Positions 21,222 through 52,945 of a stretch of 64,000 bases of DNA are shown here, in pieces; the stretch's first letter is position 1; every line of letters begins with the position of its first letter. The stretch lies in assembly GCA_008632985.1 (NCBI GenBank), contig QPGO01000014.1:62001-126000 (forward strand), written 5' to 3'. The notes beneath the pieces were generated by a model. It was given only the letters and a program-made list of their open reading frames with translations, made no database searches and was not told the origin of the DNA. The DNA is from Psammoneis japonica (lineage: Eukaryota). The position numbers and the translations under genes are program-made.

Positions 21222-21279
21222 GATGAAACATCACTCATCTGCATAAGTCACTAGAATGCATTTTTTTAATCAAAACCTT

Positions 21280-22305
21280 TATTTAGTAAGGGAACGATCC
21301 ATTGGGCCTTTCCCGTCCTGGCGGGAGCCATCCGATGTTGCTATGGCTTTGCCGCCCCACATTGCTTGTGCAAGTGCTGCGCCATTGTCGTCGTTTTCAC
21401 AGTCCTTGACCAGCCACCTGATGTCCGGGTGCAGAAGGCATGAGCTTGGACTCAGCCTGGGCTTCCACAGCCATTCTAGATGCAACAGGCAAACCAGTCT
21501 CAACTTGAAAGTCATTCTTGTTCCTCAGGAGCTTCAACGCACCCTTTGCCCACAAGCGGGGGTGGCCAACAACTGGTGGCAGCCCTTGTGACTTTGTTTG
21601 AACAACTGGCAAGGCAAGCCTGGCTCCAACTGGTGCTGCTGAATGTTCACTCTCAAGAGTTTGCTGGTGATGGCATTCTGTGGTGACTGCTGCAGGATTG
21701 CAGCAATGTGGTGTGGGCAGTGCACTTGCTTGTGGGAACAAGCTGCACATGCTGCGCCGAGCACTTGAAGTGATGTGGTGGGTCATCCACAGACCATGTT
21801 TTGCACCACATTCCCACAGATGCTTGCACCTGGGAGTCTGCTCTTGTTGAGCACTGGTGGTGCTGCTGTGCACTTGGCCTCATTCTCATTGTCAGAGCTG
21901 TCTGGGAGAGGCTTGAGAGGGTTTTCACAAGTGCAAGGCTTGTCCCCATGTGTCTTGCCAGCTGACAAGATGCCCCACTTTCTCACCTTTTGGAAGATGA
22001 GGTGTGAGCTTCAGCTGCGATCATTGAAGCACATGCGAGCAATTGTCAAAGAAGCAGCTGATGTGTTGTGCCCATTTTTTTGTCACTTTAGAGCTGAAAT
22101 GGAGCAACACTTTTGAGATGCCAAGCATGATTTGACACTTTTGTGATGCCAAACACAATTTGATTTGGATTGACGCTGTTTCAAGAGTGCATTTTTTGCA
22201 GACACATGGGCGTGCATTGAAGCGGTGGGTTCGGGGGTCAAAAACTCCAATGCGTGACCCCCAAGTGTTCCACCATCTCAAAGCATCAAAAATGCCCAAG
22301 TGCAC
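21280..22305 (-). mobile_element. Degenerate LINE (Ambal-like) fragment ending at the start of RNase H
   Basis: Minus-strand ...AQAMWGGKAIATSDGS.. resembles the RNase H 'AVSDGS' motif of diatom non-LTR elements. TpA/CpG depleted. Confidence 0.65.
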
Positions 22306-24142: not shown

Positions 24143-24949
24143 GCACAGTGCTATCGTATGTGTGATTTGGGATTCACACCTGAAGCACCGCTACATTTCC
24201 TTTATCTCTACACATTTCACATCTTCTACGAAAACCTACAAAAATTCCGCACTCTCTACCTCCACCAACGCTACATACCAAGAACACGCACCTTCATACA
24301 TAATTCCCCCCCATGGCTTATTTTGGGGGGGCGCTTTTCTTCAAGCAAGCATGCTTCCTACACTTACATGGAAGCCTACATTCTTGGCAAGTTCAATCAC
24401 TGTTTCCTTGACCGCCGATCAAAGGCCCTAAGACGGACTACCGTCACTTTACACATTATCTCTCAAGGGATTGCAAACATTGCAGCTACTCTAGATTGTT
24501 CTTGTCGACAACGCACTCGAGTTTTTATAACCCGAATGCAATTAAGTATTTAAATTTTGAATGCATTCTACAATACATAGCACGGTATTTATTTCTGACT
24601 AGTTCCTGTTGATTCGTCTTTAGTGCAAGGGCAAGGGTTAGTCACGTTTATGACTGGCAAAAAGGAACGTCCACTCTACTAGAGTAGAGTGCGGTATCGG
24701 GAAGAGACTTCTCGCCCTCGAATCGAATTCGTTTCAAAGTCAAGTTCAAAACTTAGCTCCTGCGAGTTAAGCCTAATAAGGCTTCCATTTCTGAACTAGC
24801 CCTACATCATCTTGGATTAAGCTTCGATTGACATTGCATTCCGAAGGAAGAACGAAACAGCTGCGTTATTTATGAAACTACGTGCGTCAGCATACGTGGC
24901 GCTGAAGCATTCCTTTCTTCGTCTCTGGACATGACATACGAAGAACACA

Positions 24950-26590
24950 CCGATTCGCGCAAAAAAATCGTTTTTGCGCGCGGGAAGGCCTCGAAAAGAT
25001 TGGACGTGGACTTGCAGCAAGTGCTGCGCTTGATTTCTCACACACTCAAGCTGTGCTGCTGAAGCTTGAGGGCTTCCAACTGGCAACTTTGTTCAATTGA
25101 AAATGGGTGCGGCGCTGCCACATTTGACCACTTGGCACCATGGCATCCCCCAGAAACCTCTGCAGAGACACCACACACCACAGCTCACAACTCTCACGCA
25201 ACGCAGCCAACCCAGTTAACTGCAGCCATCCTTGTCTCTCTTGTTGCCCCTGACCAGTCTGTTGGGTGCTGGTCATTGTGCTGCTGTTCATGCATGACCA
25301 AGCAGCCACAGATGTTTCCAACCACCAGTGCTCAAAAGAACCACAATTTGATTTGGGCTGGTTTTCGCCAATGTCGCAGCCCTTCACGTCATTCCAGTGA
25401 CACCAGCTGCTGCTCAAAGCGGTGGTTTGAGCTCAAAATTGCATTTCCTCCACACTGTTGACAACACAAGGATTTTCTCAAGACAATTCATGAAAAGCAA
25501 GCTGCTGCCACAATGAGCCTGGGCTGACCAACACATGCAGCGCGGTGCACCACACAATCATGCCATCTGCTGTCATTTCTTGCATTCTGTGAAATGAGAT
25601 GATGGCTTCCTCCCAATGCCAGTCAAACATGGGACAAACAAAGTCGTCTCTGGCACCCATGTTGTCACAGACAACATGAGCCTTGTTGTGTGCCTTGGGT
25701 GCCAATCGTGTGGTGCAAAGCGGCAAACCCACATTTGGCACATGTGCAAATGAAAATCCTTTCATTGCTGCAGCTTGGGCATGCCCAAGGCATCCAAAAA
25801 GAAAAAGCTGGGTGCAATCACAGTGGGCATTTTGACTTGGAATGGACTCTTTTTTAAAATTACATTGGCTTTGCTTTCACTCTTGACATGGTGGAGATTC
25901 TTTTTCCAACCAAGATGGGTGGAGCTTGAAGTTGCAGCCAAGCAAGGACAATCTTGATGAGTCCTCTTGCAGACTCTTCTTCTAGATTGATCTGGCTGCA
26001 GCCCCTCCCAGCCAAACCACATGCAAAATGCCAAGATGAAGAGCAGACAGACAGCAACAATGAACATGATGCCATGAGATGTGGCATTTGCCACACCTGT
26101 TGGAAGGCACCGCAAAGGCTTTCGTGACAACAAAGAATGTCGCAAAAGAAAAGATCTCCACCAAGAACCAACAAATGCAGCAGAGCGCAACTTGTCACAC
26201 CTTCTCATGCACTGCACATTGTTTTGAGGCCAGCACAATTCAAGTTCTTGCAAGCTGTCAATCTGAGCTCTCCCTTGAATGATTCCTTGCATTGTTTGCT
26301 GTGCATTGTCAGATTCCTCACATGAGATGAGTCAGTCACAAGGTGATCTCCATGCAATCATGTTGTGCACAAGTGCGTGTGTTGGCTGCACAAGGGCAAG
26401 TGCCACATGACTTCTGCAAAACAAGAAGAAGACTGGCCACCTGTGCCATTGTGTGTTTTGGCTGTTGTTGTCATCATTTCAATGTTGTGTGTTGCTTTGA
26501 CATTGCTGTTGTTGTCATCATTTCAATGTTGTGTGTTGTTTTGACATTGCATGTGCTGCAGAGCTGTCCACATTCAAACAACTTCCTTGC
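24950..26590. mobile_element. Unclassified degenerate TE-like DNA, TpA/CpG depleted
   Basis: Composition only; no recognisable domain. Confidence 0.45.
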
Positions 26591-27192
26591 ACCAACTTTA
26601 GAGCAAAGAAACTTGGGGTGCCAACTTTGGGGCAAAACTCAGCATGCCAAGATTGGGGCAAAACTTGGCATGCCAACTTTGGGCCAAAACTTGGCATGCC
26701 AACTTTGGGGTGAAACTCAGCATGCCAACTTTGGGGCAAAACTTGGCTTGCCATCTTTTTGGCAAAAAAAAACTTGGCGTGGGGGCAAAACTCGGCAAGC
26801 CAACTTTGGGCCAAAACTTGGTGCGCCAACTTGGCACAAAACTGGGCATGCCAACTTTGGCAAAAAAATTGGCGTGCCAACTTTGGGACAAAACTCAGCA
26901 AGCCAACTGACTTTGGGCCAAAACTTGGCACACCAACTTTGGGGCAAAACTTGGCATGCCAACTTTGGGCCAAAACTCGACATGCCAACTTTGGGGCAAA
27001 ACTTGGTGTGCCAACTTTGGCCCAAAACTCAGGCACAAAGCTCGGCCCAAGCCTCGGCACACCTGCTTTGGGGCAAAACTTGGCACGCCAACTTTGGGGC
27101 AAAACTTGGCACACCAACTTTGGCCCAAAACTTGGCATGCCAACTTTGGCGCAAAACTTGGCATGCCAACTTGGGGCAAAACCAACTTTGGG

Positions 27193-28906
27193 GAGAATTG
27201 CCAATGGAGTGGCGTACTTTCCAAAAGTGCGGTGCGCAGCACTCATCTACATGCGGACAAACAGTGCTAGACTCTACGCACCGAACACAACAAGATTTCA
27301 CTTCATTACGACAACAGCACGGGAAGTCCATCATGTCGGGTGCATCGACGTCATTGCGCTTCTTGCATGTGAAAAATACATCAATCCACTGACATTGCGC
27401 ATGCGAATTGGATGGGATGCAGGATCTTGCAAATCTGGTGAAAAAATCGTCCCCCCGTGCTTCACCGTGTTAAAAACCCCGTGCCAATCCTCCACAATGA
27501 ATGAAAATCCAACTTTTCGTCAAAATCTGTTGTCGCGTGCTTACTTCAGTGCTTCATCAATGCGATCGACCGAGAAAACACAAAATACACCCCAAAAAAA
27601 GTGAAAAACAACAGTCCCACCGCGGCCAAAACCTCTACGTGATTTCAGCACCAAGTTGTACGTGCCAAAAACCCTTCGTCACCAATGGCTCAACCAGCTC
27701 CCAAAACAACTCGATCATTGTCATTTGACATTGACATCTCATTTCTTATCATATCAGTTGTTGTCTCGGTGCATCATAACCTCCCAGTCCGCTGTCGTTG
27801 TTGTGTGCGTCCATTGCCGATGTCGCGGCGTCGTTGCCGTGATGTTTGTGTGTGAAGTGAATTCAAATAAACATCTCTACGAATTTGTAGTACATTTTTA
27901 CGTACGTATATTTTGTGTAGATCAGGTATGCGCACCGAATTTTTGAAAGTACGCCACTCCATTCCTCACCACGGAGATGCTCACCAAATGCTCACCACGA
28001 CTTTTTCGTTAAATGTGTTACGTCAGTCTCTCCGTCATATGCGAACTGCCACATCACTCTTTCACAAACCAAACACAATCCCCCCCCCCATCAAAACCGA
28101 CCAAAACTGACGGCAACGCCCAGAAAACAGAAAACAACACGCATCGACAACATGGTGGCACACAGAGCATGAAAATGATGGCCCGTAACGGCGTCAAATT
28201 TCAACCGTATGACAATAAAAAGAAGAGCAATCGAACCGTCGTGTGTTAATTAGTCTGTGAAGTTCATTTCTCTTTTGTCCAGTGCTGTGATCGTAGACTT
28301 ATGGAGTTTTTTCAGAAGCTGTCAATTGTCAAGTTTTAGATCCTTTTCTCGGGCCATTTCGACCCCTCAGTCTAAGATCAAACTACACAATAATAAGCCG
28401 ATTAAATCCTCCATGTTTAAGTTGGTCTTTAAGCTTATTGGTGCATCGTGTGGATCTAGTTTAGCTGCCTTATGCATTGAGTTTGTATGGTGCACGAACA
28501 ATCCTGTGAATACAACAAGTCTGTTTTAGCCATAAGTCCACACCATTTTGCCATTTTCTTCACCTGACATGATCATATAGACTTAATGTTATCGTATGGT
28601 GCTACTTCTATTGTTTTAAATCTGGAAGAAGTTGTGAGAAACGGCCGCAGACGACTTACACGAAAAACACATCAAGTCATCTCAGTAGATTTCTACATGC
28701 GGCTCAGTGCGTGACGTCTCAAATCGATCGCCGTTGCTCCACAGTACGCTGCAGCGCAGTGGAATTTTCGACTGAACGAAATTTGGGCGTCGATGAGGAA
28801 GGGTGTGAAGGGGGTCGGGTGGGGCGGGAAGCATTCGCGCGACTGACGCAAACAGACGTGGTGAGCATTTGGTGAGCATCTCCGTGGTGAGGAATTGGTG
28901 ATTCTC
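27193..28906. mobile_element. Non-autonomous TIR element with ~50-bp TIRs and 8-bp TSD (MULE/hAT-like)
   Basis: Left TIR GAGAATTGCCAAT+TCCTCACCACGGAGATGCTCACCAAATGCTCACCACG (split by the inner MITE) matches the inverse of 28857-28906. ACTTTGGG is duplicated at 27185-27192 and 28907-28914. Confidence 0.88.
27206..27960. mobile_element. 755-bp MITE with 2-bp AT TSD (ISL2EU/PHIS-like) inserted in the left TIR of the previous element
   Basis: Termini GGAGTGGCGTACTTTC...GAAAGTACGCCACTCC. The uninterrupted right TIR of the host element gives the empty site CCAATTCC, so the duplication is AT. Confidence 0.88.
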
Positions 28907-29829
28907 ACTTTGGGGCAAAACTTGGCACACCAACTTTGGCCCAAAACTTGGCATGCCAACTTTGGCGCAAAACTTGGCATGCCAACTTTGGGCCAAAACT
29001 TGGCATGCCAACTTTGGGCAAAACTTGGCACGCCAACTTTGGGGAAAAGCTTGGCGTGCCAACTTTGGGGCAAAACTTGGCATGCCAACTTTGGGCCAAA
29101 ACTTGGCATGCCAACTTTGGGGTGAAACTCGGCATGCCAACTTTCCGGCAATTGGCACACCAACTTTGGGGTGAAACTCAGCATGCCAACTTTGTGGCAA
29201 AACTTGGCATGCCAACTTTGGGCCAAAACTTGGTGCACCAACTTTGGCGTTAAACTGGGTGTGCCAACTTTGGGCCAAAACTTGGCATGCCAACTTTGAG
29301 GCAAAACTTGGCGTGCCAACTTTGGGGCAAAACTTGGTGCGCTGACTTTGTCGCAAAACTTGGCATGCCAACTTTGGGGCAAAACTCGGTGTGCCAACTT
29401 TGGGGCAAAACTTGGCATGCCAACTTTGGGGCAAAACTTGGCATGCCAACTTTGGGCCAAATCTTGGCACGCCAACTTTGGGGTGAAACTTGGTGTGCCA
29501 ACTTTGGGGCAAAACTGGGCACGCCAACTTTGGCACAAAACTTGGCAAGCCAACTTTGGGGCAAAACTTGGCACACCAACTTTGGGGCAAAACTCAGGCA
29601 CAAAACTTGGTGTGCCAACTTTGGGGCAAAACTTGGCATGCCAACTTTGGCACAAAACTCAGTGTGCCAGCTTTGGGCAAAACTCGGCATGCCAACTTTG
29701 GCACAAAACTCAGCATGCCAACTTTAGCACAAAACTTGGCATGCCAACTTTGGGACAAAACTCAGCATGCCAACTTTGGTGCAAAACTTGGCATGCCAAC
29801 TTTGGCACAAAACTTGGCACGCCAACTTT

Positions 29830-30398
29830 GGGTCTGCGGGAAATTGCCATTTTCACCACCTGCGTGTCAAAATTGATGGAATCGCGCCTGCCAGCACAAA
29901 ATCTGTCTGACAAGACAAATTTGTCACCGACACCACCTCGTAGAAAAGACATTTTTAGACACAACTTTTGATGCAAAAAAACTGTGTGAGACAAAGAAAA
30001 CTGTGTAAAGACCCGGATGTGCACAATTGAAAATGTCCCAAAGTTTGTGTTGTGCACGAATGTGCCAGGCTCCTGCACATGAAAGAACCCACACGCACAT
30101 TTTTCAAAATGTGTGACACAACTTTCAAAATGCACACCCGGGTTGCATTTTTTCGTGTGGATTTTGTGCTGGAAGTCTCGCAGGAATTCTAAAAACACCC
30201 GGGTGTGCATTTTTGAAACTGTGGCACAACTTTGATTTGTGTCAAAAGTTGTGTCAAAGTTGTGTCAAAGTTGTGTCTAAAACACGCGAGCTCGTCACGT
30301 AGAAAAAGCACGTGCGGCCACGCTGTTGGCATTGCAAACGGTCGAAACTCACAGAGACTCTCTGTTTTTTGCTCAAAAACACGATTTCCCGCAGAGCC
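29830..30398. mobile_element. 569-bp MITE with 3-bp TSD (PIF/Harbinger-like)
   Basis: Termini GGGTCTGCGGGAAAT...ATTTCCCGCAGAGCC, flanked by TTT on both sides. Internal inverted repeats around ACACCCGGGT. Confidence 0.78.
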
Positions 30399-31049
30399 TT
30401 TGCTCCAAAACTTGGCATGCCAACTTTGGGGCAAAACTTGGCATGCCAACTTTGTGCCAAAACTTGGCAAAAAAACTTTGGGGCGAAACTTGGCATGCCA
30501 ACTTTGGGGCAAAACTTGGCTTGCCAACTTTGGCACAAATTTGGCATGCCAACTTTGGATCAAAGACACTTGGCATGCCAACTTTGGGGCGAAACTCAGC
30601 ATGCCAACTTTTGGCAAAACTCGGCATGCCAACTTTGGCACACAAAACTCAGAGTGCCAACTTTGGACTTTGAAGCAAAACTTGGCATGCCAACTTTGTG
30701 GCAAAACTTCGTGTGCCAACTTCACTGCAAAAATGAGCACACCAACTTTGGGGCAAAACTTGGCTTGCCAACTTTGGCGCAAAACTTGGCACGCCAACTT
30801 TGTGGCAACACTTGGTGTGCCAGCTTTGTGGGGCAAAACTCAGCACGCCAACTTTGGCACAAAACTTGGCATGCCAACTTGGGGCAAAACTTGGCAAGCC
30901 AACTTTGGGGCATTGCTTGGCACTGGGATGAAACTCAGCCTTCCAACTTTTGGGCAAAACCCGGCATGCCAACTTTGGCACAAAACTCAGTGTGCCAACT
31001 TTGGACTTTGAAGCAAAGTGCGACATCCCAGCTTTGAGGTTAAACTTGG

Positions 31050-34000
31050 TGTGCAAACTCCAACACAAATGCAATGAAAGAGGGCAGCACAAAACTGAGC
31101 ACTCCACTCAATGTGAAGACAGGCACCTCTCTGGAGTTGCCCATGTCATTGAAATCAGCTGACACTGCACCAACTCTGACCATCACTCCATTTGTGGACA
31201 ACAACACAGGGAATCTAAACCAAAACAAAGATCTTCCACCTCGCCATTTCAGCTCTCACCCACTTCACTCCATTGGTGCTGGGAGCATGCCAAAATGAAC
31301 AAATTGCCCCAAGTTTGTCAAGCCATTGAAGTCATGCCAAGAGCCTCTGACCATCAACACATTTCAAGCTGTCTGCTCAATGCTGGCACAGACTTGCCGA
31401 AGTTGTCACTTTGCTGTTGACTCAAAACAGGAGAGTCTTTTTGTCCATGTTGGTTGCACCAAGGCAGCGTCAAAGGCAAGAACAAAAAAAACATTTCATC
31501 ATTTCCTGTTTCTTGCACACTTGCAAATGCAGCCAACCAGCTGTCAGTGCAGAAGCACAGTCCAGCGCCCAAACTGACCATTCGCAACTTGTCTGTTGAT
31601 GGACGCACCCACTGGAACCCATGTTGTCAATGCAAAGTTGTGACAGCACACCATTTCCTGACCAGCATGAGCTCCACACCAAAATCATTCTGGCAAGCTC
31701 CAAATGCAATGGGGCCACCCAAACTGATCACACCAAACATGCCATCTAAAGCTTGCCCAGTGAGTGTCTTTCCACATTTTCCCTGCAGCAACGTGTTTGC
31801 ATTGCCTTGAAAGATCTGAGCTGGCTCAGAACCACCACAAAGAATGTTTGCTTCTCATCCACAAAAGCACCCACAGAAAAAACACCTCTGGCATCTGACA
31901 CAGACATGGAAAAGCCAAAGCAATCTTCAGCAGCTTTTCTGTCAATGTCAGCCCCAAGATGGCCCCAGTGGTCAGCACTGGAGTTGCACCCAAAAAAGAC
32001 TTGAAAACACCTTGATCACTGCTGCCATCATCATCATCATCATCAAAATCTGCTCCAGCTGCAACAGCACTGCTGCTGACATTGAGAGACACAAACTTGC
32101 CAAAGCCTTGTCCACCCTCTTCTCATCTCACCAGCTCAAGACCATCTGCAACATGTTTCTGCACTGAACCAGAGCAATGCTTGTCAACAATTAAAAGTTC
32201 CACACCTTTGCCTGATGTTTCTGCCAATCTTCATTGCACATGAACATTGATTCTTGTCGTTGATGATGGCTGTCAATTCGCAAATCATTTGATTGATTTT
32301 TCTTGTTTTGAGTTGCCTGTTGTGCTTTTTGTGTGTGCGTTGTTAAACTTGTTAAGTTTGCATGCATTTCATCCCTTCTCTTTCCAATCGCAAGCTGTTT
32401 CCCTTCTGTTTTGCTCTGTTTCTGCCGGATCTGTCCTTTTTTCCCACTGCACACACCACAAGCCTCCTGCCAACCAAAAATCTGCCAACCACAATGGCAC
32501 ACCCCTGTTGCAATCCAATCTGTCCCAGTCAGATGTCTGACAACAATGACCAGTGTGCTCTCTGCCCACATTTCAAAGGTGTCCTCAGTGCGCTTCCTTC
32601 TTTTGTTGTGGCCTTGACAATGCATCTTCCTCTTGGTGCCTCCCAAGAACCATTCCCTTGATTCAAGCACCAAAGGATTCTTGTCCCTGTCTCTTCATGA
32701 TGGTGATCCATCCCACCTTTTTCCAGATGGCAGTGATCATGAGTTTCAGCCATCTGCCCACGGCAATCCCTCTTCCAATGAACTGCTGTCAAACCAACCA
32801 TGAAGATTGCGGAGGCTGCGGTGCTTCTCATCACTGCATTTCTGGCTAGCTTGCAAGGTGCATGGATGGATCCTCACCTCACACATGATGAGGCACTGCA
32901 GCATGGTGACTTTTCTGGGACTTCATAAGTCCAGAATCTCACCTGGCCTCTGAGGCACCTCAGATTGGAAAAATTCAGTTTCAGCCCCATGCACAGACAA
33001 CTGCTGCAAGGGATGTGGAAAGTGCTGCTGCACTGTTGCTCAGCTGGGTGAAGAAATCCAGCACAGCTGCTGTGAAGCACAGGAGTCCAAAGTGTTCACT
33101 TTTCAGAATGCAATGATTTCCAGAGCATTTCCATTCGATGATGATCAGAAACAGCCAATCCAAGAAAACACAATGCAGTGGGCATGTTGGGCATTTTGCT
33201 GCAAGGGAGTTGCTCAAGCAGCAACAACCTTTCAAGACATCAGCGCAATGCTTCACAGAGCATTTCTTTTAGAAGGAACCTGGGGTCAAGAGTTGCAGAA
33301 TAAAAACCCAGATTTTTCCAGAGCTGTGGTGAGTGCTCCTGTCATGCTGACAAAAAACAGCAGTGCTTCTAGTTGCAGCACAGTTGTCCCTGCTCTGGCC
33401 ATTTTTGCACTGCTCCTTGCCCTTGCTGTTCTCTGGTGGGCAGGCATTGTGAACATCCCAAAAGGATTCTTTGGTTTCCGTCACCTCTGACAGTGCATGT
33501 GCGGCATTTGTTTGACACCACTGATCCACAAAAGACACTGTTTGTGGTTCTTTTCACATTCAAAACTTCTCTGTTGGCAAAGGGACAGGCCAAGGGCATT
33601 CCACATCTCCTGCTTGCACCTCTTCCTCCATTTCTTTCATCATTTGGGTGTCTGCTTGGTCCAGGCATTTGTTGTGTTGCTGCTCAGCAATGGCGACATT
33701 TGAAACACACAATTCTTGTCACAACAAAAATCCTTCTGCTGTCAATCCTTTTGATCAAACCTCACCCACAGAATCAAAACAAGTGATTTGCAGGAAAGGA
33801 TTGACAATGGGGCAGCTGCAATGACCAAACAAACATTCATGAGATGAGAGAGACATTGGTGCAACATGACAAACAACACCGACATTTTGCAACTTGATCC
33901 TGGTCCTGAAACTCTGGTTTTCTTCCACACTGGCACCACACATTGCACGCCGGGATTGCATGCTTCTTTTTGTTGACTTTTTCTTCCATTTGGCTGGGCT

Positions 34001-42507: not shown

Positions 42508-45500
42508 TGTTGGAGCATCTGGATTTGGGGTGTCAGAGTGTGGTCCAGTGAGTGATTTTGCATGAGGAGAGTCTTGCCATCATCTGTCCCTTGCCTTTGA
42601 TTTCCATCTCACTCTTTAGATTGAATCACTGGATTTGCACGATTTGTCATTCGGTGTCACTGGGCTCCAGTCATTGTGCAAATTTGAAGATTGCACTGAT
42701 GCCTTTGGCAACCCACAGTCATTGCAGATGACCAAGGCAAAAGTGTGTGAAGCAGCAAAGGAAGCCCAGCAGGGTTCCCTTTTGGCAACATTGACTTGCT
42801 GGCTCAACACCAACTTCAAAGAGTTGCTGGCATTGTGTTCAGTGCCTGCAGACACTGACCTGCACACAGTCAATTGAACACTGAACACCTGCACAACAAG
42901 CAGCAGAGGAGTTGGCAGAACAAATGACCAAGGCCACAGCTGTGGCATGGGTGACAAGAGTCACAGGTCCTCCAACCTGAAGAAGAAGACCAACACTGAG
43001 AAGCACTTTCAACCTGAGACAAAGTTTCATCCTCCACAACTGAACAGCGACACTTGCAATGCTGGATGTGAAGACATCAAGGAGAAGATCATCTGTTGCA
43101 TGCAAAAGGTGTGTGAACAAGGCACGCACATGGTGAGGTCTTTGGAAGACATGAAATGCAAGGATTTTAATTCCACAACACCTGCCTTTTTAAACAAAAA
43201 GTGCACACGGCAACCATGCCATCAGACACAACAACCATGGGATGCCAGAATGCACTGAAAAAGAAAGAGCACAAAGACAAGGAGCTGGAACATGAGCACA
43301 AAACAGAGCCAAGTGACTGCCACAAGAAAGCAAAGCAGTTCAAAGAGAACAAAACAACTGCACTCACCAAGATTTGTGTGGTTGCTGCACCAAGCAAATG
43401 AAGCAGAGAGTGCAAGCCAATCCCAGTTGCCCCAAAAATGGGGACACTGACCAGGTTGCTGAAGCTGATCCAGCCCCTTGCACTTGACTCAACAAAAGGT
43501 TGACACCCACTCCACACACTTGCCAAGGCACCCTGAAGAACATCCCAGATGTGAGGCAGCAAGAGCATGTAAGATGTTGAATGGTTGCCTGTCAAGATTC
43601 AAGAATCAGCAAGATGCTGCAAATGAAGGACTGGGAAACAGAGTGCAGGGCAGTTTCATCTCCAATGCCAAGGAGTGCCAGGAAGGAAGCACTGCACTTC
43701 ATGACAAACCACCCAAAGAAGTCAGTGTTGAAGAACTGGATGACATTTCTGTTTGTGAAGACCAGCAATGATTGCCGCTGCAAGAGCTTGAAGAAGAGCT
43801 TTGACCCATCCAAAGACCCTGGAGAAGGCATTGGATGCACTGCAGAACAACCTGAAAGACAACGATTCTTGCAACTGACACAAAAGGAAGATCTGACAAT
43901 GTGAAGGACCAGAGCCATGCCCAGAAGAGCAACCAGAATGATGCCACAGTGTGTCACTGCTGATGCAAATTAAAAGCAAGTCCCCAGACTGCAAGCATCA
44001 AAGCAACATTGTGCGCAACAGCTGGTTCAAGAACACTGAAAAAAACAGACATTGGGGGACAGAGTTCACACACAAGCCTGAGTTGGGAATGATGACCACT
44101 CATCAGTGGACAGTGACAACATGAGTGCCAACACTGCCAGATCCAACCAATCAACCTGCTCAGCCAAAGCAGGAAAGCTGCATGTGGACAAGATCATTCT
44201 CAACAATGGCTCTGCCCTCAGCACAACAGCAAGCCAGGGACCAGCACACAATGTGCGACTGGCCAAGATGAAGATTGATCAATCCATGAACACTGCTGGA
44301 TGAGGGGAAATGAAGCTTGGAGCAGAGAACATGATGGCAGACATCCTCAGTTTAAAGGATGTGAAGAGCAAGCACTGTGCAACATGTGACAGCAGAGTGG
44401 CAGACAAGCTCTGATTGCTGGACAAGAAGAGTGGCAAACAAGTCACAGTGTTCAGAGTCAATGACATCAGGCACTGTGTGCCTTTGTCCCAAGCCAGAGA
44501 TTCTTCAACCATGCCAAAGAACTCCAAGAAAGCAAGTCACATGTGAGCATGCTGTTGAAGAAAAAGAACAAGAGAGACAAGAAGCACAGGAGTGCATCTG
44601 GAACTGTGGCTCCAATGGTGGAACCAATTTCCATGGGCCACACCAAGAGGGAGGCAGCAAGTTCTGAGTGAGCACTCAGACTGTGCTGCAAGGCTGGAAC
44701 ACCCAGTGCAAGAAATTTCGTGCAATTTTTGCATTCAAATCAGATGAAGAACTTGTCCATCATGCCCAAAAGATGTAGACAGGATGCTGGCTAATTGGGG
44801 TCAACCAATGAGTGCATTGAAAGGAAAGACCAAGCATGCATGTTGGTCCCATGAGAGGAATGATGCCACAGCTGTCCTGTCTGAGACACATGAGAAGCAG
44901 AAAGAAGGTGTGATCCTTTGAATTGATGTTGCAGAAGTGTGCATGGTCAAGACACTTGATCAAGTTCTAGTTGAAAGTGGTGCTGAAGTCCAAGAAGCAT
45001 GTTGATTTGCACAATGCCCTGGACATGATTTTCTGACAGTGCAGCACAGCTTTGTTCAAAATTGACTTGTTGAGTGTGATCCCAAGTTCAAGGTTGAGCT
45101 GGTGGAAGTTGCTGACAGAGCATGCCATTGGAGCTGATGTTCACAATCACCAGTGACCACATTTCTGAGGTTGAAAGGAGCATTGAGACCATCAAGGAGC
45201 AAACTCAAGCTGCACTGCACACCATCTGCCATGCAAGATGACACCCAAGTTGATGTGTGAGCATGCCATGATCAAAAACACTGTCATGTCAAACATTCAC
45301 CCACAGAAAGAACAAGGAATTTCCCACACTTGCAGCCCGCACACTGTTGTGCAATGAAGGAGCCTTGACTGTGACAAGCACTTCATGTTTGCCTTTGGTG
45401 AGTTTGTCCTGTCTCATGTTGAGAGCAACCCAATGAACACCATGGGTGCACAAAGCACTGGCAACGCACATCTGTGACCATGTTTTGGTGTTCCCAAAAG

Positions 45501-48500
45501 GGCAGCCACTGCACCACAAGCCTGCACATGGGCAAGCTTCTTCTGAACCCCTGCAAGTGCGCCGCCACACCCCTGCCCAACATGCGCACAAGTGGTTGAG
45601 AAGATGGCCACAGCACAAGGCATCAAAGATTTTAAATTTGTGAGCAAATGCAAAGGCAACCCACATGGTGCCGACTTTGCTGCAGGATGGAGTGGAAAGT
45701 GATGAAGACTCGCAAAGATGCAACACCAGAAACATTGCAACCAACTCAAAAGATGACAACTGTGAAGATGAAGTGGGTTTGATGAAGAGCATGAAGAAGC
45801 AAATGAGATCCCAGCCAATGAAAGGTCTCCATCCCCAGTGTGCAATGTGCAGCCACTGACAAGAGTCAGTGCATCACGGCAACGTGTTGCAGCCTTTAAA
45901 TGTCACAAAGGGCGTGACAAAAATGACCTTTTGTCTGCATGCACACTGCATTGTGAATTCACAGCGGAGTGGTTCATCGCAACCATCAGGCAGGAGGCCA
46001 GGGGTTCGAAACCCTGAGAGGGAGTTGTCTGCAGCAACGTTGATCACTGTCGAACGCGCAAAACTCTGTGCAGTTCTGTGTGTTCCTTCGTGCGCACCCA
46101 CACTGTTCTGCCAAAACCGTGCAGTGTCAGCACACGTTGGTAAAGAGCCGCATGGACGCGTGACACATGGGGAGGAGTGCAACACACAGCCACCAACAAG
46201 AGTTGATGTGTCACGGCGACGTGTCACAGCCTTCAAATGTCACAAAGGGCGTGACAAAAATGACCTTTTGTCTGCATGCATGCTGCAAATGAACAGCGCG
46301 AGAACCAGCAAGTCAAGGATGAGCACTGTGATGGCTGCGAACATGCTGAAGAAGACCAGGACAGCAAAGAAACAGAAGAAGACAATGAGCACCAAGAAGA
46401 TGCAAGGTGAGAAGGAAGAAGACCAGAGGAAGAGGCAAGTGCCATGTCTGCCAGAACAGCCAAAGCTGGCAGAGCCTTCCAAGCCACCACAACACACACT
46501 CAGAAGCAAACACAAGAGCACCACATGCCAAGAGAAGAAAGTTTGATTTGCAGGAGCGGCACACCATGAATGCAGGCTCAAACACTGCCGCCATTTGTGA
46601 ACAAACAACATTCCCAACACAGAGGAAGATGCCAAGAAGCTCCACACAGAAACAGCAGCAGTGCTGGCACAAGTGATGTGCAAGATTGACAACTGACTCT
46701 GACCAGGGGAGGGCATCTCCTTTGCCCAGCAACATTTGCCACATGAAGGCCCAAAAGCATTGACCAGAAGGGGCATGGTGCCTCAGAGAAGGAGATTGAA
46801 CAACTCCACAACAGATTGTGCTTTGCACCAACATCAATTGAAGACATGGCTCTGAAAGATCCAATGCTGTGATTGCCTTGATGTTCCTGATGGAAAAGCA
46901 AGATGGTCATGTGAAAGGGCGAGTGGTTTGCAATGGAGAAAACAGACTGGAGAATGGTTGGACAAGGATGACCCAGACAGCCCAATGGCATCATTGGAAG
47001 GAATGATCCCTGTGGCCCAGAAATGTGTCCAGAACTTCAAGGTTTGACCAACCACAATTCCCATCATTGCCGTTTTTGTTCTTCCAGAACAGCCATTGAC
47101 CATGAGCTGGGAGATCAACAGTGCAGACAAGCCAAACAATGAGCTCAGCACCTGTGCATTGGGATTACAAAGCAGTGGCCACGGAGCTGCTGGCATGAGT
47201 TTGGGGACCTGGGAGATGTGTGAGAGAGATGCTCTTCACAAAAAAGATGTGCAACAGGAGTGGAGAGTGACTGCAGCAAATGGAGATGTGGTTGCAACAA
47301 CAGAAGGAATCCAGAACAAGGAACTCCAAACAGCAAACACTGACATGGCTTGATGGCTCAGAAGCAGGAACATAAAGAGCCAATGAGTGATGACCCAAAC
47401 ATCCATCATGTGATGTTTTAGATTTTGCATCAATTCATTGTTGATGCAAAGGTGGAGAGGGAGGGCCACATGTTTGCTTGCAGCAAGATCCCACCCCTTT
47501 GACCAAAATGGAGTGCCCCATGGAGTGTGAAAGTGCAGAGATGTGGAGCACACAAATGTGCGAGCATGTGTCCACTGCTGCAACGATGTTTTCCTTGCAC
47601 AATGAATGGAGCACATCAGTTGAATTTTAATCATGTGGTTGGAACAAACACATGACCAAGGAACATTGGCAGATCATCAGAAGCTGAGCCACAAGACAAG
47701 GCAAAGCATGTTTTCATGACTTCAGAGAGCACAATGCAAGCAGTGAGTGAGTTAAAGACAAGTGCATTGCTGGATCAGACAACAAGAGACAGGGATGTCA
47801 AGCTCTGTGGTTGGCCCCAGACAAACATGACATCAGACAATTGAGCAAAACATTGATGGTCAGTTGTTGTCCTGCCCGCCTGTGGCATGGACACTTCTGG
47901 GGTTTGTGGTCCCCTTGTGAAGCTCAGCACCAATCATTCCAAAGATCAGATGAGTCATTGTGGCAGGATGGGGACAGCATTGTCTGTGACTCAAAGAAGC
48001 TGGCATTGTTCTTCCACCATGATGTCAGTCGAGCCAAGCCCATGTTGGAATGGACTTGTCACCGGATGGAGTTCTTTGAGTTGATTCCTGAGGCAACCAA
48101 TGGTTGGGTCATGGACCCACTTGATGGTCCATGTGGCAGAGTTCCAAAGAAAAGGATCAGCCGCACCTGTGTTGGGTGTTTTGTGGAGAGTGTGCAAGGA
48201 ATTACAGACTCATTCAATGATGTGATTGACTTCTCCAATGAGGGATGATCTGCGCCATTCTGACTTGGAAGATGTCAGTGCTGAAGCAACAGAAGTGGCT
48301 GATGACAATCTGGTTGCCATTTCAAAAGGGTCCACGCATTCCTCAGTGCCCATCAGACCAAGCTCACATCAATGCAAGTGGCAGGAGTGTGTTGGAGCAT
48401 CCAGATTTGGGGCATCACAAGGTGCCCAGGCATGTTGAAGGAAAGACATTTTGACTCTTGATGTGGTCCACTGAGTGACTCTGTGTGTGAGGAGAGTCTC

Positions 48501-48726
48501 ACTGTCGTCTGCCCCTTGCCTTTTTTATCTCACTCTTTGGAGTGAATCATTTGGTTTGTGCCATTTGTCATTTGGTGTCAGCAGGTGCCTGTTGTCACAC
48601 AAATTGCAGTTTACATTGACATGTTCAGCAACCTGCAGCCATGCAGATGACCAAGGCAAGTGCATCAAACGGCACAGGAATCCCACCAGGATTCCTTTTT
48701 GGCAACATTGACTTGCCAGCTCAACA
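42508..48726 (+). mobile_element. Degenerate Ty1/Copia (CoDi-like) LTR retrotransposon
   Basis: LTRs 42508-42809 and 48390-48726 (TGTTGGAGCATC...GCTCAACA). 5-bp TSD ATCAT/ATTGT. Protease IILNNGSALS (44193), integrase HISEVERSIETIKEQ (~45158) and RT start LMFLMEKQDGHVKGRVVCNG (46878), in PR-IN-RT order. Confidence 0.88.
45841..46287 (+). mobile_element. TRIM-like mini LTR element (110-bp LTRs, 227-bp internal region)
   Basis: Direct repeats 45841-45950 and 46178-46287, both TG...CA. Polypurine tract GGGGAGGAG directly before the 3' repeat. Flanks AGTG/AATG (imperfect 4-bp TSD). Confidence 0.8.
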
Positions 48727-51700
48727 ATTGTGGTCACTTAGATTCAATTTTATCTGGGCACTGGCGTCAGTTTTCTGAAAATGGAAAACACACTCCAAGC
48801 AAGTTGCCTCATTCCAAGTCTCAATGACTCACGTCTCTTTGCCCCTTTTTGTCTTGCACAAATGATGCACACATCAATTTTGACAACACTGGTGTTCCTG
48901 TTTTGAGATTGAGAAGTGTGCTGGGTGAACTGTTGCCTTTCACATCTCCAAGTTGTCACCATGTCCAACATTGCTCCACCCAACGGTCATTCTGTGGACA
49001 GTCTCAAACTTGATGGCCAGCACTCTCACCTCAACAGCACTTCCTCTTTGAACCCTGTCAAGCAAGCATTTCCATCTGCTCATGCTTGGAAACAGTGGTG
49101 TCAAGCACATTCCTTGTTTTGCAAAGATGACACCTTGGAATTGCAGCATCCACTGGGTCAGTGGGCAGTGCCCACCACAAACAAGTGCATGTGTCCTTTT
49201 TGACACATGTTGCAAGAAGTCCAAAGAGCTTTTGCACATCAGGTTGAACACTGAAGTTGACATTTTCCCTCTCACAGATGGCACAGCAGACTCTGTGTCC
49301 CCTGGAGTCTGTTCTGGATCCTTCCCCATTGGCATCTCCAGGCATGGTTCTTGCCACAAGCAAAGTCTTCTGGCCAATTTGGTCTCCTGGTGCTCCAGTG
49401 TCTTTGCCACCAAATCTTCCTGTTCCCAACAATTTCTTTGAAATGTTGTCATCCTTGCCAAAGTGGGAGTCTTTCCTGATTGCCAATCTCACCTTGCATG
49501 TGTGAGCACTCAAAATTGCAGAATCCTTGTCTTTGTCAAGGGCTGTGGCAGGCAGTGATGGGTTGGTGATTCACTTCCACAGCACCTTTGGCTGGATGCT
49601 TGCCATTGATGGTTCTCTCCATTGGCTGATTGCACTGGTCCAGTTTTCAGGTTCTGTTCTTCTTCCTGTTGAGCTGAGGCAATTGGTTTCATGCCCTTTT
49701 TTCAGCTTCTGTTCAGACTGATGGGTTGTTGTCAGAGAGTGTTTGTCCCAGGAGTGGATCTGTGCCCATGACAACTCCTCATTGGTGCAGAATGTTTCTC
49801 ATTTTTAGGCTGCATCTCCCTCCTGGACAGTGCAGAGTTTTCAGATGCAGGCTGGGGCACTTCTGCTGTTGCAAGAAATTTGCCAGCTCCAGATTGGGGC
49901 ATGGCACACAAGACATTTCACTCATGTCAGCAGGTGCTGGAACTGGGAACTGCCATCTCTCCCTGCAAACTTGAAGCTTGAAGTTGAACATCTGAGCAGA
50001 CCAGCTGGTGAGGAATTGACAAAAGGCTCCTGCACTGGCATGACACTTTGTTTGCTTGCTCCTCCTGTCCCACACTGCTCTGCAAACTTGGTCTGATTCA
50101 ACATTTTTCTGTCACCTCCAAATTCAAGTTCACACTTCAGCATGACTTTTCCAGCCCCACATTGCAACAATGGTGCATGCAGGAGAAGTGTGGTTCTTGG
50201 TCATGTGAAGTTTTTGACTCTGTTGATTGGACTGTGCACTCCAAATTCATGTCTGGTGACTGGTGACATCAACAAGGGGAAATGAATCAGCACCATTGGG
50301 CTGGTGTGCACAACTTGTTGCCAATGAACAAGGCACTGTTCATTGCTGCAACCCAAGAACTCATCCAGACAGCTCTGTTCATTGTCTGCACCTGATGGAA
50401 GACAGAAGTCACATTCTTTGATCTTCCCACAATGAGACTTGGCACTGGCATTTCTTTGACTTCAGGGCCTTCACAAGAAATGCTGCAATGTTGACACATC
50501 ACCTTCCCCATGCAACTTCCTCTTGTTTGCTCTTGAGTTCTGGATTCACAATGAAGTTGTCCACCCCAGATGAGCTTCATCACACAGTGTTCTCACAGTC
50601 TTTTGTTCTCAGGACAACACTGGGCAGTGCCATCCTCTGTTTGGTGGTCACTTTTCTTCCTTGTGGAATGAAACTCAAACACCACATCTTCTGACTGGCA
50701 GCCCACATCACAGCTTTCCTCTGATGGCAAATGGCCAGATTGTCGGCCCCATGATCGGTGGTGGCTTTGTTTGGCCGCAATGATGGCAGGACCTGTGGGA
50801 TTCCCACAATGATGCCATTCATGGCCACAATTGTGAAACTCAGAAATCTTCTCAATGCCAAGATGCTTGGCTGTTTTCATTGCACACATGCTTTGACTTG
50901 TTGCTCAAGGGTTTCAGGCAAAAAGAAGGTGAAAGAATGCACCCTGCATTGCAGAGAGAGGAGTCGCTTTGTCAAAGCAACTCTTGCCTTTTTGTTTTGT
51001 TGCCAAATTTGGTGCACAGTGTGGCATCAAAATGACGTGCCTTCTGTCGTGATGGTTGCATCAAATGAGCAAAGCAGCATCACACTGAAAGTCTCATGGG
51101 GGCTTTTTGTTTGGGGCGGTGTTGGACAGAATGTCGTGACCATCACATTTTATTTGACGTCGTTGAATTGCGTTGAGCACAGCACAACACTGCTGTCAAC
51201 ACACTGATGGGTGTTTTGCACGCTGCCATAGACTACCTAGAAGTTACTTCCATGATTGACTGTCATCATTGCATGCTGTAGATGCTTGGACTTGTTGCCT
51301 AAGGGCTTCAGGCAAAAAGGTGAAAGAACACATCCTGCCGATTGACAGGTGGCTCTAGTCAGTCCACACAAAATGTGCCATGCTGGAAGTCACTTCCATA
51401 CTTAACTGTTTTCCAGCATGCTCAATCTTGTTACGAATGGGACAAAATTCTGACGAAGTCTGCAGACTGTTTTGGCTGCGTGGTGTTGGTAACAGCAAAA
51501 GAGCTGAGCTTCAAAAGAAGAATCTAGCTGCTGGGAAATAACATCTGTAAAGCTAGGAAATAATGTCTGTAAAGCCTCGTAAATTGAAAATGAGGTTTGT
51601 CCAATCCTTTCGCGGCAAAGACGCAGACGAGTCAGACATTGTTGATGCCGTTGGTAAATCCTTACGTTCAAAGTTGATGAAGTTAGTTGAAGTAGCTATA

Positions 51701-52586: not shown

Positions 52587-52945
52587 TGTCACTGATAATC
52601 TGTATGTTGTTGTGAACTGCTGAAGATCGTTGTCGACGAAATGACAAAAGATTTCAAAGCAAATCCTTATTCGAAACCTTTCCGTGACTATGCCAATTTT
52701 GACAATTTTCCTTATTCAAAATGAAACGAAGCACGGCGAACGAGGAAGAAAGTTCTCGGTGAATCGAATGGGTCCGGAGAGAATAGGGAGTCGAATGGGT
52801 CCAAAAATAATCGTCTCTCCTCCGGCCGCCCTTGCACATCGTTTCGACAGAAGATGATCTCCTCAACGCGACGATGACGTTGCCGACCTGTGTTTTCACA
52901 CAACATTAGCGAACGAACCACAATCTACAACAACTGCACCAGAAC

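What the first reader, a model, noticed from the sequence alone, without database searches (positions are those of the whole stretch)
24950..51225. Repeat-targeted TpA to TpG/CpA hypermutation alongside CpG decay: a candidate RIP-like genome defence
Seen: over ~26 kb both TA and CG are nearly absent and CA/TG dominate. Translated ORFs contain almost no Tyr in any frame, while flanking genes are normal. Conserved motifs give the direction of change. LINE RT IH(I/L)YEAD reads THMCKAD (aca cac atg tgc aaa, consistent with ata cac ata tac gaa; ~41327). Copia protease LDNGST reads LNNGSA (ctc aac ... tct gcc; ~44199). Copia RT LTEKRDG..VYNG reads LMEKQDG..VCNG (~46887). Known: 5mCpG deamination and fungal RIP give only C to T, and RIP creates TpA. 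Neither produces TAC to TGC, ATA to ACA/ATG or tA to tG. Inference: a second mutagenic pathway acts at TpA in silenced repeats, for example adenine modification/deamination or T to C mis-repair. I know of no named mechanism for this, but cannot exclude prior reports.
Basis: partly seen in the sequence, partly recalled or inferred. Interest (0 to 1): 0.93.

Follow-up and report, generated by a model that had tools for sequence, protein, structure and literature searches.

The report
TpA-erasing hypermutation in diatom repeats
A 26-kb gene-free repeat block in a diatom genome has had almost every TA and most CG steps rewritten to CA or TG, which matches a TA-directed mutation process reported so far only in one unrelated alga.

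Summary
In 24,938-27,214 and 28,746-51,150, TA observed/expected is about 0.05 and CG about 0.17. CA and TG are about 1.8, G+C is unchanged, and the edges are sharp. Contigs built independently from a public read set reproduce the block at the same depth as the flanking genes. One contig crosses the right edge, so this is not an assembly or base-calling artefact.

The direction TA/CG to CA/TG is supported by six lines:
- exact pyrimidine-purine mass balance;
- CA-versus-TG discordance between terminal-repeat pairs;
- family-majority TA where this copy has TG;
- TA in copies outside the tract versus CA/TG inside;
- hypervariable residual TA sites;
- edge margins with TA 0 of 25 expected and CG 31 of 35 expected.

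TA loss is therefore separable from CpG decay, and it follows a TAY >> TAG > TAA rule.

The closest known case is the TpA-to-TpG/CpA hypermutation of integrated viruses in Bigelowiella natans (2026 preprint). This is a second lineage, at saturation. The enzyme is unknown.

The parts
24938..27214 (.). Left TA-free tract. CG is also lost from about 25,030 to about 26,780.
   Evidence: TA and CG positions; 500-bp counts.
26609..27182 (.). 26-bp satellite array, natively TA-free. Its units vary as CG/TG/CA at fixed positions.
   Evidence: Tandem Repeats Finder; repeat families D1-D6.
27215..28745 (.). Spared island of normal composition: 57 TA and 70 CG in 27,251-28,650.
   Evidence: It shares short inverted segments with both of its edges.
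28746..51150 (.). Main TA-free tract. The CG-poor part runs from about 28,900 to about 50,740.
   Evidence: The 22 consecutive 1-kb windows from 29,001 to 51,000 have rho_TA <= 0.10 and rho_CA+TG >= 1.73.
28746..28906 (.). Edge margin with TA erased and CG kept: 0 TA against 6.1 expected, 14 CG against 8.5 expected.
   Evidence: The island copy of a shared segment has GTAC where this margin has GTGA.
28907..31004 (.). Two further arrays of the 26-bp satellite (28,907-29,832 and 30,406-31,004).
35733..36892 (.). About 189-bp tandem array of 6 copies. Related segments lie at 36,803-37,179 and 37,771-38,202.
   Evidence: Copies differ as TG/CG/CA and TA/TG at the same columns.
42601..42809 (+). 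5' long terminal repeat of a decayed element of about 6.1 kb.
   Evidence: Direct repeat with 48,522-48,726. Other genomic copies diverge exactly at 42,809 and 48,522 (table 7). Depth in 42.7-45.3 kb is 780-960 against about 60 for single copy.
48522..48726 (+). 3' long terminal repeat of the same element.
   Evidence: 209 aligned columns: 157 same, 35 transitions (25 in pyrimidine-purine steps), 13 transversions, 4 gap columns, 10 CA/TG discordant steps.
45840..46287 (+). High-copy small element nested in the LTR element. It has 111-bp terminal direct repeats around a core of about 226 bp. TA is erased and CG kept.
   Evidence: Depth 28,000-34,000 in the two bins 45,339-46,672. 2 TA and 21 CG. 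The repeats differ by 17 transitions, 0 transversions and 0 gaps. The family majority has A (giving TA) at 46,092 and 46,139 where the window has G.
50744..51150 (.). Right margin. CG returns (7) while TA is still absent (0 against 15.6 expected).
   Evidence: A read-derived contig spans 50,843-53,404 into the proteasome gene with 1 differing letter.
21477..22089 (.). Isolated small depleted tract in the gene-rich flank.
   Evidence: 612 bp without TA, 6 CG, 62 CA, 84 TG. The window 21,001-22,000 passes the published cluster thresholds.
1..794 (.). Small TA-free tract cut by the window start. CG is partly kept.
   Evidence: The TA-free gap 149-794 holds 21 CG, 64 CA and 68 TG.

Best explanation
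This is a gene-free block of old repeats in a diatom nuclear genome. It holds satellites, a tandem array, a decayed LTR element, a nested high-copy small element and now low-copy DNA. Two separable DNA-level mutation processes have acted on it after the sequences arrived.

(1) A locally targeted A:T-to-G:C transition process restricted to TpA (TpA to TpG on one strand, CpA on the other). It has run to saturation, prefers TAY over TAG over TAA, and stops within about 100 bp at the tract edges.

(2) Ordinary CpG-to-TpG/CpA decay of the kind expected from cytosine methylation of silenced repeats. It is slower, or covers a slightly narrower domain.

Process 1 is the same kind of event as the TpA hypermutation seen in mutation-accumulation lines of Bigelowiella natans.

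Shown: the signature, its direction, that it is post-insertional and at the DNA level, and that it is independent of CpG loss.

Inferred: that it is enzymatic and guided by chromatin or by foreign-DNA recognition. The most likely chemistry is deamination of adenine to hypoxanthine in DNA by a TadA/ADAT-type deaminase. The natural tRNA substrates of these enzymes place a U directly 5' of the target A (U33-A34; recalled textbook knowledge).
For: Reality. Logan contigs of run X1 (depth about 60, longest contig 315 kb) match the core:
- 39,397-42,801 with 12 other letters;
- 46,260-47,877 with 10;
- 48,530-50,701 with 11.
Their depth is 59-66, against 58-60 for the flank genes. One contig bridges 50,843-53,404.

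Direction:
- Pyrimidine-purine steps make up 23.98% of flank and 24.00% of core. CA+TG rises by 7.87 points while TA falls 3.50 and CG falls 4.34.
- LTR pair: 10 CA/TG discordant steps, and 13 adjacent transition pairs against 5.8 in shuffles (21 of 20,000 reach the observed value). Small-element repeats: 7 discordant steps, 9 adjacent pairs against 2.45 (0 of 20,000), with 17 transitions, 0 transversions and 0 gaps.
- Family depth shows A, hence TA, at 46,092 (14,354 of 22,554) and 46,139 (19,114 of 24,255) where the window has TG.
- The copy outside the tract (51,252-51,348) has TA twice where the inside copy has CA.
- 2 of 10 residual TA in the fully listed contig differ from the reads (OR 37.5, p=0.002). 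Core against flank differences are 33 of 7,195 vs 2 of 5,185 (p=2.6e-6).

Specificity:
- AA is unchanged.
- ATAT, GTAC, ATAC and ATAG total 0 in the core against 604 in the flank. TTAA is 25 against 73.

Independence from CpG: the three margins together have TA 0 against 25.1 expected and CG 31 against 34.7 expected.

Published parallel: doi 10.64898/2026.01.13.699255. All but 1 of 231 hypermutations are A-to-G or T-to-C, and all of these fall on TpA. Its cluster thresholds are met here by 22 consecutive 1-kb windows.
Against: No de novo mutation was observed. Everything is inferred from one window, one read set and small paralogue sets.

The whole genome was not available. Intact copies of the families could therefore not be aligned, and no deaminase could be sought.

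The library type of X1 is not on record, and X1 may be the sample the assembly came from.

Discordant CA/TG steps cannot tell an ancestral TA from an ancestral CG. In the small element their density (7 in 111 columns) is higher than typical TA or CG content alone would give.

Residual TA contexts could partly reflect how new TA arise rather than which TA are spared.

8 of the 23 listed letters that differ between window and reads in single-copy core are transitions outside TA/CG steps. The region may therefore also have a generally raised transition rate.

The spared island (27,215-28,745) is unexplained.
Confidence: 0.78

Rival explanations
1. The signature and targeting are the same, but the chemistry is on thymine. 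A TET/JBP-type dioxygenase marks T in TpA of silenced repeats as 5-hydroxymethyluracil or 5-formyluracil. Mispairing or faulty repair of that base then gives T-to-C. TpA decay would be the footprint of a T mark, as CpG decay is the footprint of a C mark.
For: In dinoflagellates 5hmU made by TET/JBP homologues is enriched on repeats and silences transposons. In Crypthecodinium cohnii it preferentially replaces T in TA and TC (PMC11572971, passages read). TC/GA is mildly low in the core (o/e 0.91/0.96 vs 1.15/1.11 in the flank).
Against: No 5hmU is known to me in diatoms (recall). The flanks are coding, so the TC/GA difference may only reflect codon content. That 5hmU opposite A gives frequent T-to-C is recalled, not tested. 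Sequence alone cannot separate A-to-G from T-to-C at a palindromic step.
Confidence: 0.15
2. There is no dedicated system. The pattern is a passive by-product of late-replicating, methylated heterochromatin, for example error-prone patch repair around deaminated 5mC or biased mismatch repair, accumulated over a long time.
For: TA loss and CG loss largely coincide. The LTR pair is old: 13 transversions and 4 gap columns in 209.
Against: Polymerase-eta-type repair (recalled WA-to-WG signature) should also deplete AA, which is unchanged. GC-biased conversion should raise G+C, which is 0.479 vs 0.475. Two margins lose all TA (0 against 9.5 expected) with CG at or above expectation (24 against 13.2). 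The small element's repeats differ by 17 transitions and no transversion or gap, so the process outruns background mutation.
Confidence: 0.12
3. The composition is native. The block is foreign or specialised DNA that was always written without TA and CG.
For: The 26-bp satellite consensus has neither TA nor CG.
Against: Unrelated components share the pattern and the edges are sharp. Terminal repeats that should have been alike at insertion differ by CA/TG steps. The family majority has TA where this copy has TG. The mass balance is exact.
Confidence: 0.03
4. It is a sequencing, base-calling or assembly artefact on modified DNA.
For: The platform of the assembly and of run X1 is not on record.
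Against: An independent k-mer assembly of X1 reproduces 7.2 kb of single-copy core at about 99.5% identity and at the same depth as the flanking genes. It also bridges the edge. Contigs of up to 315 kb at word depth about 60 imply accurate reads (inference).
Confidence: 0.03
5. RNA editing (ADAR-like A-to-I) of retroelement transcripts, fixed by reverse transcription.
For: A recalled preference of ADAR for U 5' of the edited A.
Against: The two LTRs of one insertion differ at these steps, so the change came after integration. Satellites' neighbours, margins and low-copy DNA are also affected. CA and TG are near equal overall, 2,582 vs 2,424.
Confidence: 0.02

Closest known systems
TpA hypermutation of integrated giant-virus and virophage DNA in Bigelowiella natans (Mettrop et al., bioRxiv 2026, doi 10.64898/2026.01.13.699255; abstract, Results and Discussion read)
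   Same: Transitions are A:T to G:C only at TpA, giving TpG or CpA. The process is confined to discrete tracts. Its long-term footprint is low TpA with high CpA+TpG in clustered 1-kb windows. Variant density inside the tract is raised, 27-fold there and about 12-fold here. That paper also finds TpA-poor genes enriched for reverse transcriptase and DDE domains.
   Different: The host here is a diatom (stramenopile), not a chlorarachniophyte. The footprint is saturated (rho_TA 0.00-0.10, against 0.45 for their virus region). The target is a repeat and satellite block with no recognisable viral or transposon protein. It is accompanied by CpG decay, which that paper does not mention (0 occurrences of 'CpG'). 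A 3' context rule (TAY >> TAG > TAA) is seen here. No de novo events were observed here.
Repeat-induced point mutation (RIP) of fungi
   Same: Saturating, transition-only inactivation of repeated or foreign DNA, with sharp borders.
   Different: RIP is C:G to T:A, creates TpA and lowers G+C (as stated in PMC2621366, abstract seen in listing). Here TpA is destroyed and G+C is unchanged. Dependence on duplication is not shown here.
CpG decay by deamination of 5-methylcytosine in methylated transposons
   Same: It explains the CG-to-TG/CA half of the pattern (CG o/e 0.17). Diatoms methylate transposons, and many encode a RID-related DNMT4 of unknown function (PMC9998398, passages read).
   Different: It cannot touch TpA. 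At the margins and in the nested element TA is lost while CG is kept.
5-hydroxymethyluracil marking of transposons in dinoflagellates (PMC11572971)
   Same: A base modification on repeats in a related (SAR) lineage, with a reported preference for T in TA and TC.
   Different: It is an epigenetic mark, not a reported mutational footprint. It is not known in diatoms. It is a lead for mechanism only.

Membership tests
TpA-directed hypermutation (Bigelowiella natans type) | Changes are A:T to G:C and fall on TpA only (TpA to TpG or CpA). | tested here: met
   Apart from CG, only TA is lost; AA is 1.20 vs 1.17. Polarised sites were found. Residual TA sites are variable, OR 37.5. The evidence comes from comparisons, not from observed new mutations.
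TpA-directed hypermutation (Bigelowiella natans type) | [quoted passage not shown] | tested here: met
   25 of 64 windows pass, including 22 consecutive (29,001-51,000).
TpA-directed hypermutation (Bigelowiella natans type) | Mutation rate in the tract about 1000-fold above the rest of the genome, measured in mutation-accumulation lines and active in only some lines. | not testable with these tools
   Only a proxy is available: 33 differences in 7,195 bp of core against 2 in 5,185 bp of flank, between window and read contigs.
TpA-directed hypermutation (Bigelowiella natans type) | The target is foreign or selfish DNA (integrated virus or transposon). | tested here: inconclusive
   An LTR pair, a high-copy nested element and satellites are present. 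No viral or transposon protein domain was found in any frame.
Fungal RIP | C:G to T:A transitions that create TpA and lower G+C. | tested here: not met
   TA o/e is 0.05. G+C is 0.479 vs 0.475.
5mCpG deamination decay | CpG depleted, with matching gain of TpG/CpA. | tested here: met
   CG o/e is 0.17. Satellite and tandem copies show CG/TG/CA at the same columns.
5mCpG deamination decay | The region carries cytosine methylation. | not testable with these tools
   No methylation data are available.
ADAR-type editing of retroelement RNA | Changes arise before integration, so both LTRs carry the same edits and non-retrotranscribed DNA is spared. | tested here: not met
   The LTRs differ at 15 pyrimidine-purine steps. 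The margins have no TA.
Polymerase-eta / non-canonical mismatch repair (WA to WG; recalled definition) | A after A is mutated as well as A after T. | tested here: not met
   AA/TT are not depleted (1.20/1.31 vs 1.17/1.15).
   42,601-42,809 and 48,522-48,726, 157 of 209 columns identical. Other copies break at the same ends.
   0 Pfam families at E <= 0.01. phmmer gave 1 hit, spurious.
   0 Pfam families in any frame of 38,001-51,304.

The most novel reading that the evidence does not exclude
TpA-directed A:T-to-G:C editing of DNA is an old genome defence shared by distant SAR lineages (diatoms and chlorarachniophytes). It is guided by chromatin or by foreign-DNA recognition. It is enzymatically separate from cytosine methylation and faster than methylation-driven CpG decay. 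It is probably carried out by a tRNA-adenosine-deaminase-derived enzyme, whose U-A-pyrimidine substrate preference shows here as TAY >> TAG > TAA. In this diatom it runs to completion, so that every silenced tract is marked by a TA-free footprint that can be read from sequence alone.
Probability: 0.3. Interest if true: 0.88.

Novelty: new member of a known kind. Interest (0 to 1): 0.72.

Why it matters
Until a 2026 preprint, no natural process was known that specifically converts TpA to TpG/CpA in genomic DNA. That report rests on one chlorarachniophyte.

A saturated footprint of the same kind in a diatom would show three things. The process is not a curiosity of one species. It acts on ordinary repeat DNA as well as on integrated viruses. 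It can be separated from CpG methylation decay.

It also gives a context rule (TAY) that any candidate enzyme must explain. It gives a simple sequence criterion for mapping such tracts in other protist genomes. A natural DNA adenine-editing activity would also interest base-editing work.

Practically, such tracts make transposons invisible to protein-based annotation, as happened here. Repeat content of diatom genomes may therefore be underestimated.

Tried and rejected
- The whole genome was not held. There was therefore no genome-wide scan, no family consensus and no search for deaminases.
- Earlier notes of this scan gave nothing for this genome or sequence. The one 'TpA depletion' note concerns a phage island and has no bearing.
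- Pfam found no transposon or viral family. This covers 208 ORFs of 70 aa or more in 24.5-51.5 kb and six-frame read-through of 38,001-51,304 and 24,901-38,102. The only hits were low-complexity matches on satellite translations.
- phmmer of the 650-aa frame 43,899-45,848 against 1.84 billion representatives gave 1 hit at E <= 0.001, a HYR-repeat protein matched over 46 Cys-rich residues, which I judge spurious. The planned protein-level polarisation (Tyr to Cys/His and so on) could therefore not be done.
- Rfam gave 3 sub-threshold miRNA-family matches on the palindromic satellite (36 bits against gathering scores of 61-95), which I judge to be chance.
- ARAGORN found 0 tRNA genes in 24-52 kb. 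My tRNA-like reading of the nested element's core is therefore unsupported.
- 80 gene-centred metagenome loci of diatom-like carriers (317,504 bp, 1,150 windows of 500 bp) had 0 windows with rho_TA < 0.2 and rho_CA+TG > 1.5. These loci are gene-rich and short, so this says nothing about other diatoms.
- No RNA holder was listed for the stretch.
- Runs X2 and X3 added nothing on the core.
- Literature searches for the signature in diatoms or elsewhere found only the Bigelowiella preprint.
- Strand-coordinated runs of CA or TG within one repeat copy were too few to judge.

Full report
**1. What the window is.** The flanks carry ordinary, intron-poor eukaryotic genes:
- a galactosyltransferase, a zinc alcohol dehydrogenase, an ankyrin protein, a mitochondrial carrier and a PAP2-type transferase;
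- a proteasome alpha subunit at 51,783-52,592 and two cold-shock-domain genes.

The carrier's best relatives, at 60-69% identity, are diatom proteins from several orders. The organism is therefore a diatom without a close sequenced relative in that collection. No whole genome is held.

**2. The observation.** It is real and extreme.
- In 28,751-50,800 there are 76 TA (observed/expected 0.05) and 211 CG (0.17), against 2,582 CA (1.79) and 2,424 TG (1.86).
- In the flanks the ratios are TA 0.56, CG 0.94, CA 1.20 and TG 1.18. G+C is 0.479 in the core and 0.475 in the flanks.
- None of 44 core windows of 500 bp has more than 4 TA. The mean of 73 flank windows is 19.0.
- Nothing else changes much: AA is 1.20 vs 1.17 and AT is 0.78 vs 0.93.
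- The tract is interrupted by an island of normal composition, 27,215-28,745.
- Two further small tracts lie in the gene-rich flank, at 1-794 and 21,477-22,089.

**3. Not an artefact.** One public run (X1) holds 76% of the sampled 31-mers of 38,001-48,000. Its independently built contigs lie on the single-copy parts of the core:
- 39,397-42,801, with 12 other letters;
- 46,260-47,877, with 10;
- 48,530-50,701, with 11.

Their depth is 59-66, the same as the flank genes at 58-60. One contig runs from inside the tract (50,843) into the proteasome gene (53,404) with one differing letter. Contigs of up to 315 kb at word depth about 60 imply accurate reads; this is my inference, because the library type is not on record. 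X1 may be the sample behind the assembly. It therefore excludes an assembler or polishing artefact, but it is not an independent isolate.

**4. What the block contains.**
- Arrays of a 26-bp satellite at 26,609-27,182, 28,907-29,832 and 30,406-31,004.
- A tandem array of about 189 bp at 35,733-36,892.
- A pair of 209-bp direct repeats 5.92 kb apart, 42,601-42,809 and 48,522-48,726. Other genomic copies break off at their ends, and depth in between is 780-960, roughly 13-15 copies. This is a decayed LTR element.
- Nested in that element, a 448-bp element at 45,840-46,287 with 111-bp terminal direct repeats. Its depth of 28,000-34,000 is of the order of 500 times single copy.
- The rest is near single copy at 80% likeness or more (depth 77-250).

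No protein family is recognisable anywhere in the block:
- 0 transposon or viral families in 208 ORFs;
- 0 families in six-frame read-through of the whole block;

**5. Direction of change.** Six independent lines point from TA and CG to CA and TG.

(a) Transitions keep purine/pyrimidine class. Pyrimidine-purine steps are 23.98% of all steps in the flank and 24.00% in the core. The gain in CA+TG (+7.87 points) equals the loss of TA (3.50) plus CG (4.34).

(b) Terminal repeats are alike at insertion. CA can only become TG by two changes, so a step that reads CA in one repeat and TG in the other marks an ancestral TA or CG that mutated independently in each repeat.
- The LTR pair has 10 such steps in 209 columns. 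Adjacent transition pairs number 13 against 5.8 in shuffles (21 of 20,000 shuffles reach this).
- The nested element has 7 such steps in 111 columns, with 9 adjacent pairs against 2.45 (0 of 20,000).
- The nested element's repeats differ by 17 transitions, no transversion and no gap. The process has therefore far outrun background mutation.

(c) For the nested family, most of the read depth carries A, and hence TA, at 46,092 (14,354 of 22,554) and 46,139 (19,114 of 24,255). A minority does so at 46,080 (19,268 of 83,334). At all three sites the window's copy has G, reading TG. Only 40 of 1,492 variant rows were shown, so this is a sample.

(d) A 90-bp segment is present both inside the tract (50,863-50,955) and outside it (51,252-51,348). 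It has TA twice in the outside copy where the inside copy has CA. A segment shared by the island and the margin has GTAC in the island and GTGA in the margin.

(e) In the one contig whose differences are all listed, 2 of the 10 remaining TA differ between window and reads. The comparison is 10 differences in the other roughly 3,385 bases (odds ratio 37.5, p=0.002). Overall, core and flank differ by 33 of 7,195 vs 2 of 5,185 (p=2.6e-6).

(f) Copies of the tandem and satellite repeats show TG/CG/CA, and in places TA/TG, at the same columns.

**6. Two processes, not one.** At three edges the TA-free zone reaches beyond the CG-poor zone. The margins are 24,938-25,027, 28,746-28,906 and 50,744-51,150.
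- In the three margins together there is no TA (25.1 expected, P about 1e-11) but 31 CG (34.7 expected).
- In the first two margins CG is above expectation (24 against 13.2).
- The nested element keeps 21 CG but only 2 TA in 448 bp.

TA loss therefore does not need CpG loss. It is either faster or spreads further.

**7. Specificity.**
- Residual TA are not random. ATAT, GTAC, ATAC and ATAG total 0 in the core against 604 in the flank.
- Per-base ratios to the flank are: CTAC 0.03, ATAA 0.06, GTAA 0.10, CTAG 0.10, CTAA 0.39, TTAA 0.58.
- Read per strand, this is TAY >> TAG > TAA.
- Residual CG is highest in GCGC (0.45) and lowest in TCGA and ACGA (0.09). Part of this reflects the satellite.

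**8. Mechanism.**

Shown: post-insertional, DNA-level, strand-symmetric overall, TpA-specific A:T-to-G:C change with sharp domain borders, acting on every sequence class inside the domain.

Rejected:
- Fungal RIP, which goes in the wrong direction.
- GC-biased conversion, because G+C is unchanged.
- Polymerase-eta-type WA-to-WG repair, because AA is untouched.
- Editing of retroelement RNA, because the LTRs differ and the margins and low-copy DNA are hit.
- Native composition and artefact (sections 3 and 5).

Inferred: an enzyme recruited to silenced or foreign chromatin.
- My first choice is adenine deamination in DNA by a TadA/ADAT-type deaminase, as the Bigelowiella authors also propose. 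I add that the natural substrates of these enzymes have U33 directly 5' of A34, and that bacterial TadA reads U-A-C. Both points are recalled and were not tested here. They fit T-A-pyrimidine.
- The main alternative is oxidation of T in TpA to 5hmU or 5fU. Dinoflagellates mark transposons with 5hmU, and it prefers TA and TC in one species (PMC11572971, passages read).
- The CpG half is most simply ordinary decay of methylated CpG. Many diatoms also carry a RID-related DNMT4 of unknown function (PMC9998398, passages read).

**9. Comparison with what is known.** Five full-text searches found one report of this signature: Mettrop et al., bioRxiv 2026 (abstract, Results and Discussion read).
- In mutation-accumulation lines of Bigelowiella natans, 231 of 302 new mutations fell in two integrated viral regions.
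- All but one of the 231 were A-to-G or T-to-C, and all of those were on TpA.
- The rate was about 1000-fold above background and was seen in only some lines.
- That paper mentions neither diatoms nor CpG. Its mutation tables are in supplements I could not open.

The present case is therefore a second, phylogenetically distant member of a kind described only months ago. It is at saturation, lies on a repeat block rather than a recognisable virus, is accompanied by but separable from CpG decay, and has a 3' context rule.

**10. Open points.**
- It is not shown whether targeting depends on repetition, chromatin or origin.
- The island at 27,215-28,745 is spared for reasons I could not determine.
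- 80 gene-centred metagenome loci of diatom-like genes showed no such tract (0 of 1,150 windows). These loci are poor in repeats, so this is uninformative.
- All polarised evidence rests on small numbers from one window and one read set.

**Verdict.** The novelty class is a new member of a known kind. Interest is 0.72.

Noticed in passing
39,397-50,701 (sites 39477, 40500, 40723, 41002, 41108, 41451, 47186, 49651): Eight transitions between window and read contigs lie outside TA/CG steps. Read on the pyrimidine strand, all eight have a purine 5' and a pyrimidine 3'. Seven of the eight fit W-R-C/T-Y, which resembles the AID hot-spot motif as I recall it. This is post hoc and the sample is small. 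The corresponding trinucleotides are not depleted in the core.
   Followed up: partly
11,837-12,770: Perfect 50-bp direct repeats (11,837-11,886 and 12,721-12,770), with hairpin palindromes at 11,852-11,999, bracket a TA-rich stretch; rho_TA is 1.12 in 12,001-13,000. This may be a young small mobile element in the gene-rich flank that has not been TA-depleted.
   Followed up: no
26,609-31,004: The 26-bp satellite is nearly palindromic. Variants at its GCGCGCC-like core (GCATGCC, GCACGCC, GTGTGCC, GCACACC) read as independent CpG decay in each unit. It draws sub-threshold miRNA-family matches from Rfam, which look like chance.
   Followed up: partly
core 28,751-50,800 against the flanks: TC/GA (o/e 0.91/0.96 vs 1.15/1.11) and AT (0.78 vs 0.93) are mildly low in the core. 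This could be a weaker second target, or only the difference between coding and non-coding composition.
   Followed up: no
4,619-6,334 (- strand): Two tandem paralogous cold-shock-domain genes. Their DNA is 79% identical over 584 bp.
   Followed up: no
13,051-15,270 (- strand): A 739-aa ORF with a small methyltransferase domain (MTS) and DUF7059 lies about 10 kb from the block. There is no evidence that it is connected to the mutation pattern.
   Followed up: no
27,187-28,923: The spared island shares short inverted segments with both of its borders: 27,203-27,251 with 27,916-27,963, and 27,961-28,006 with 28,850-28,895, the latter 96% identical. This suggests a rearrangement or an insertion within the satellite.
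   Followed up: partly
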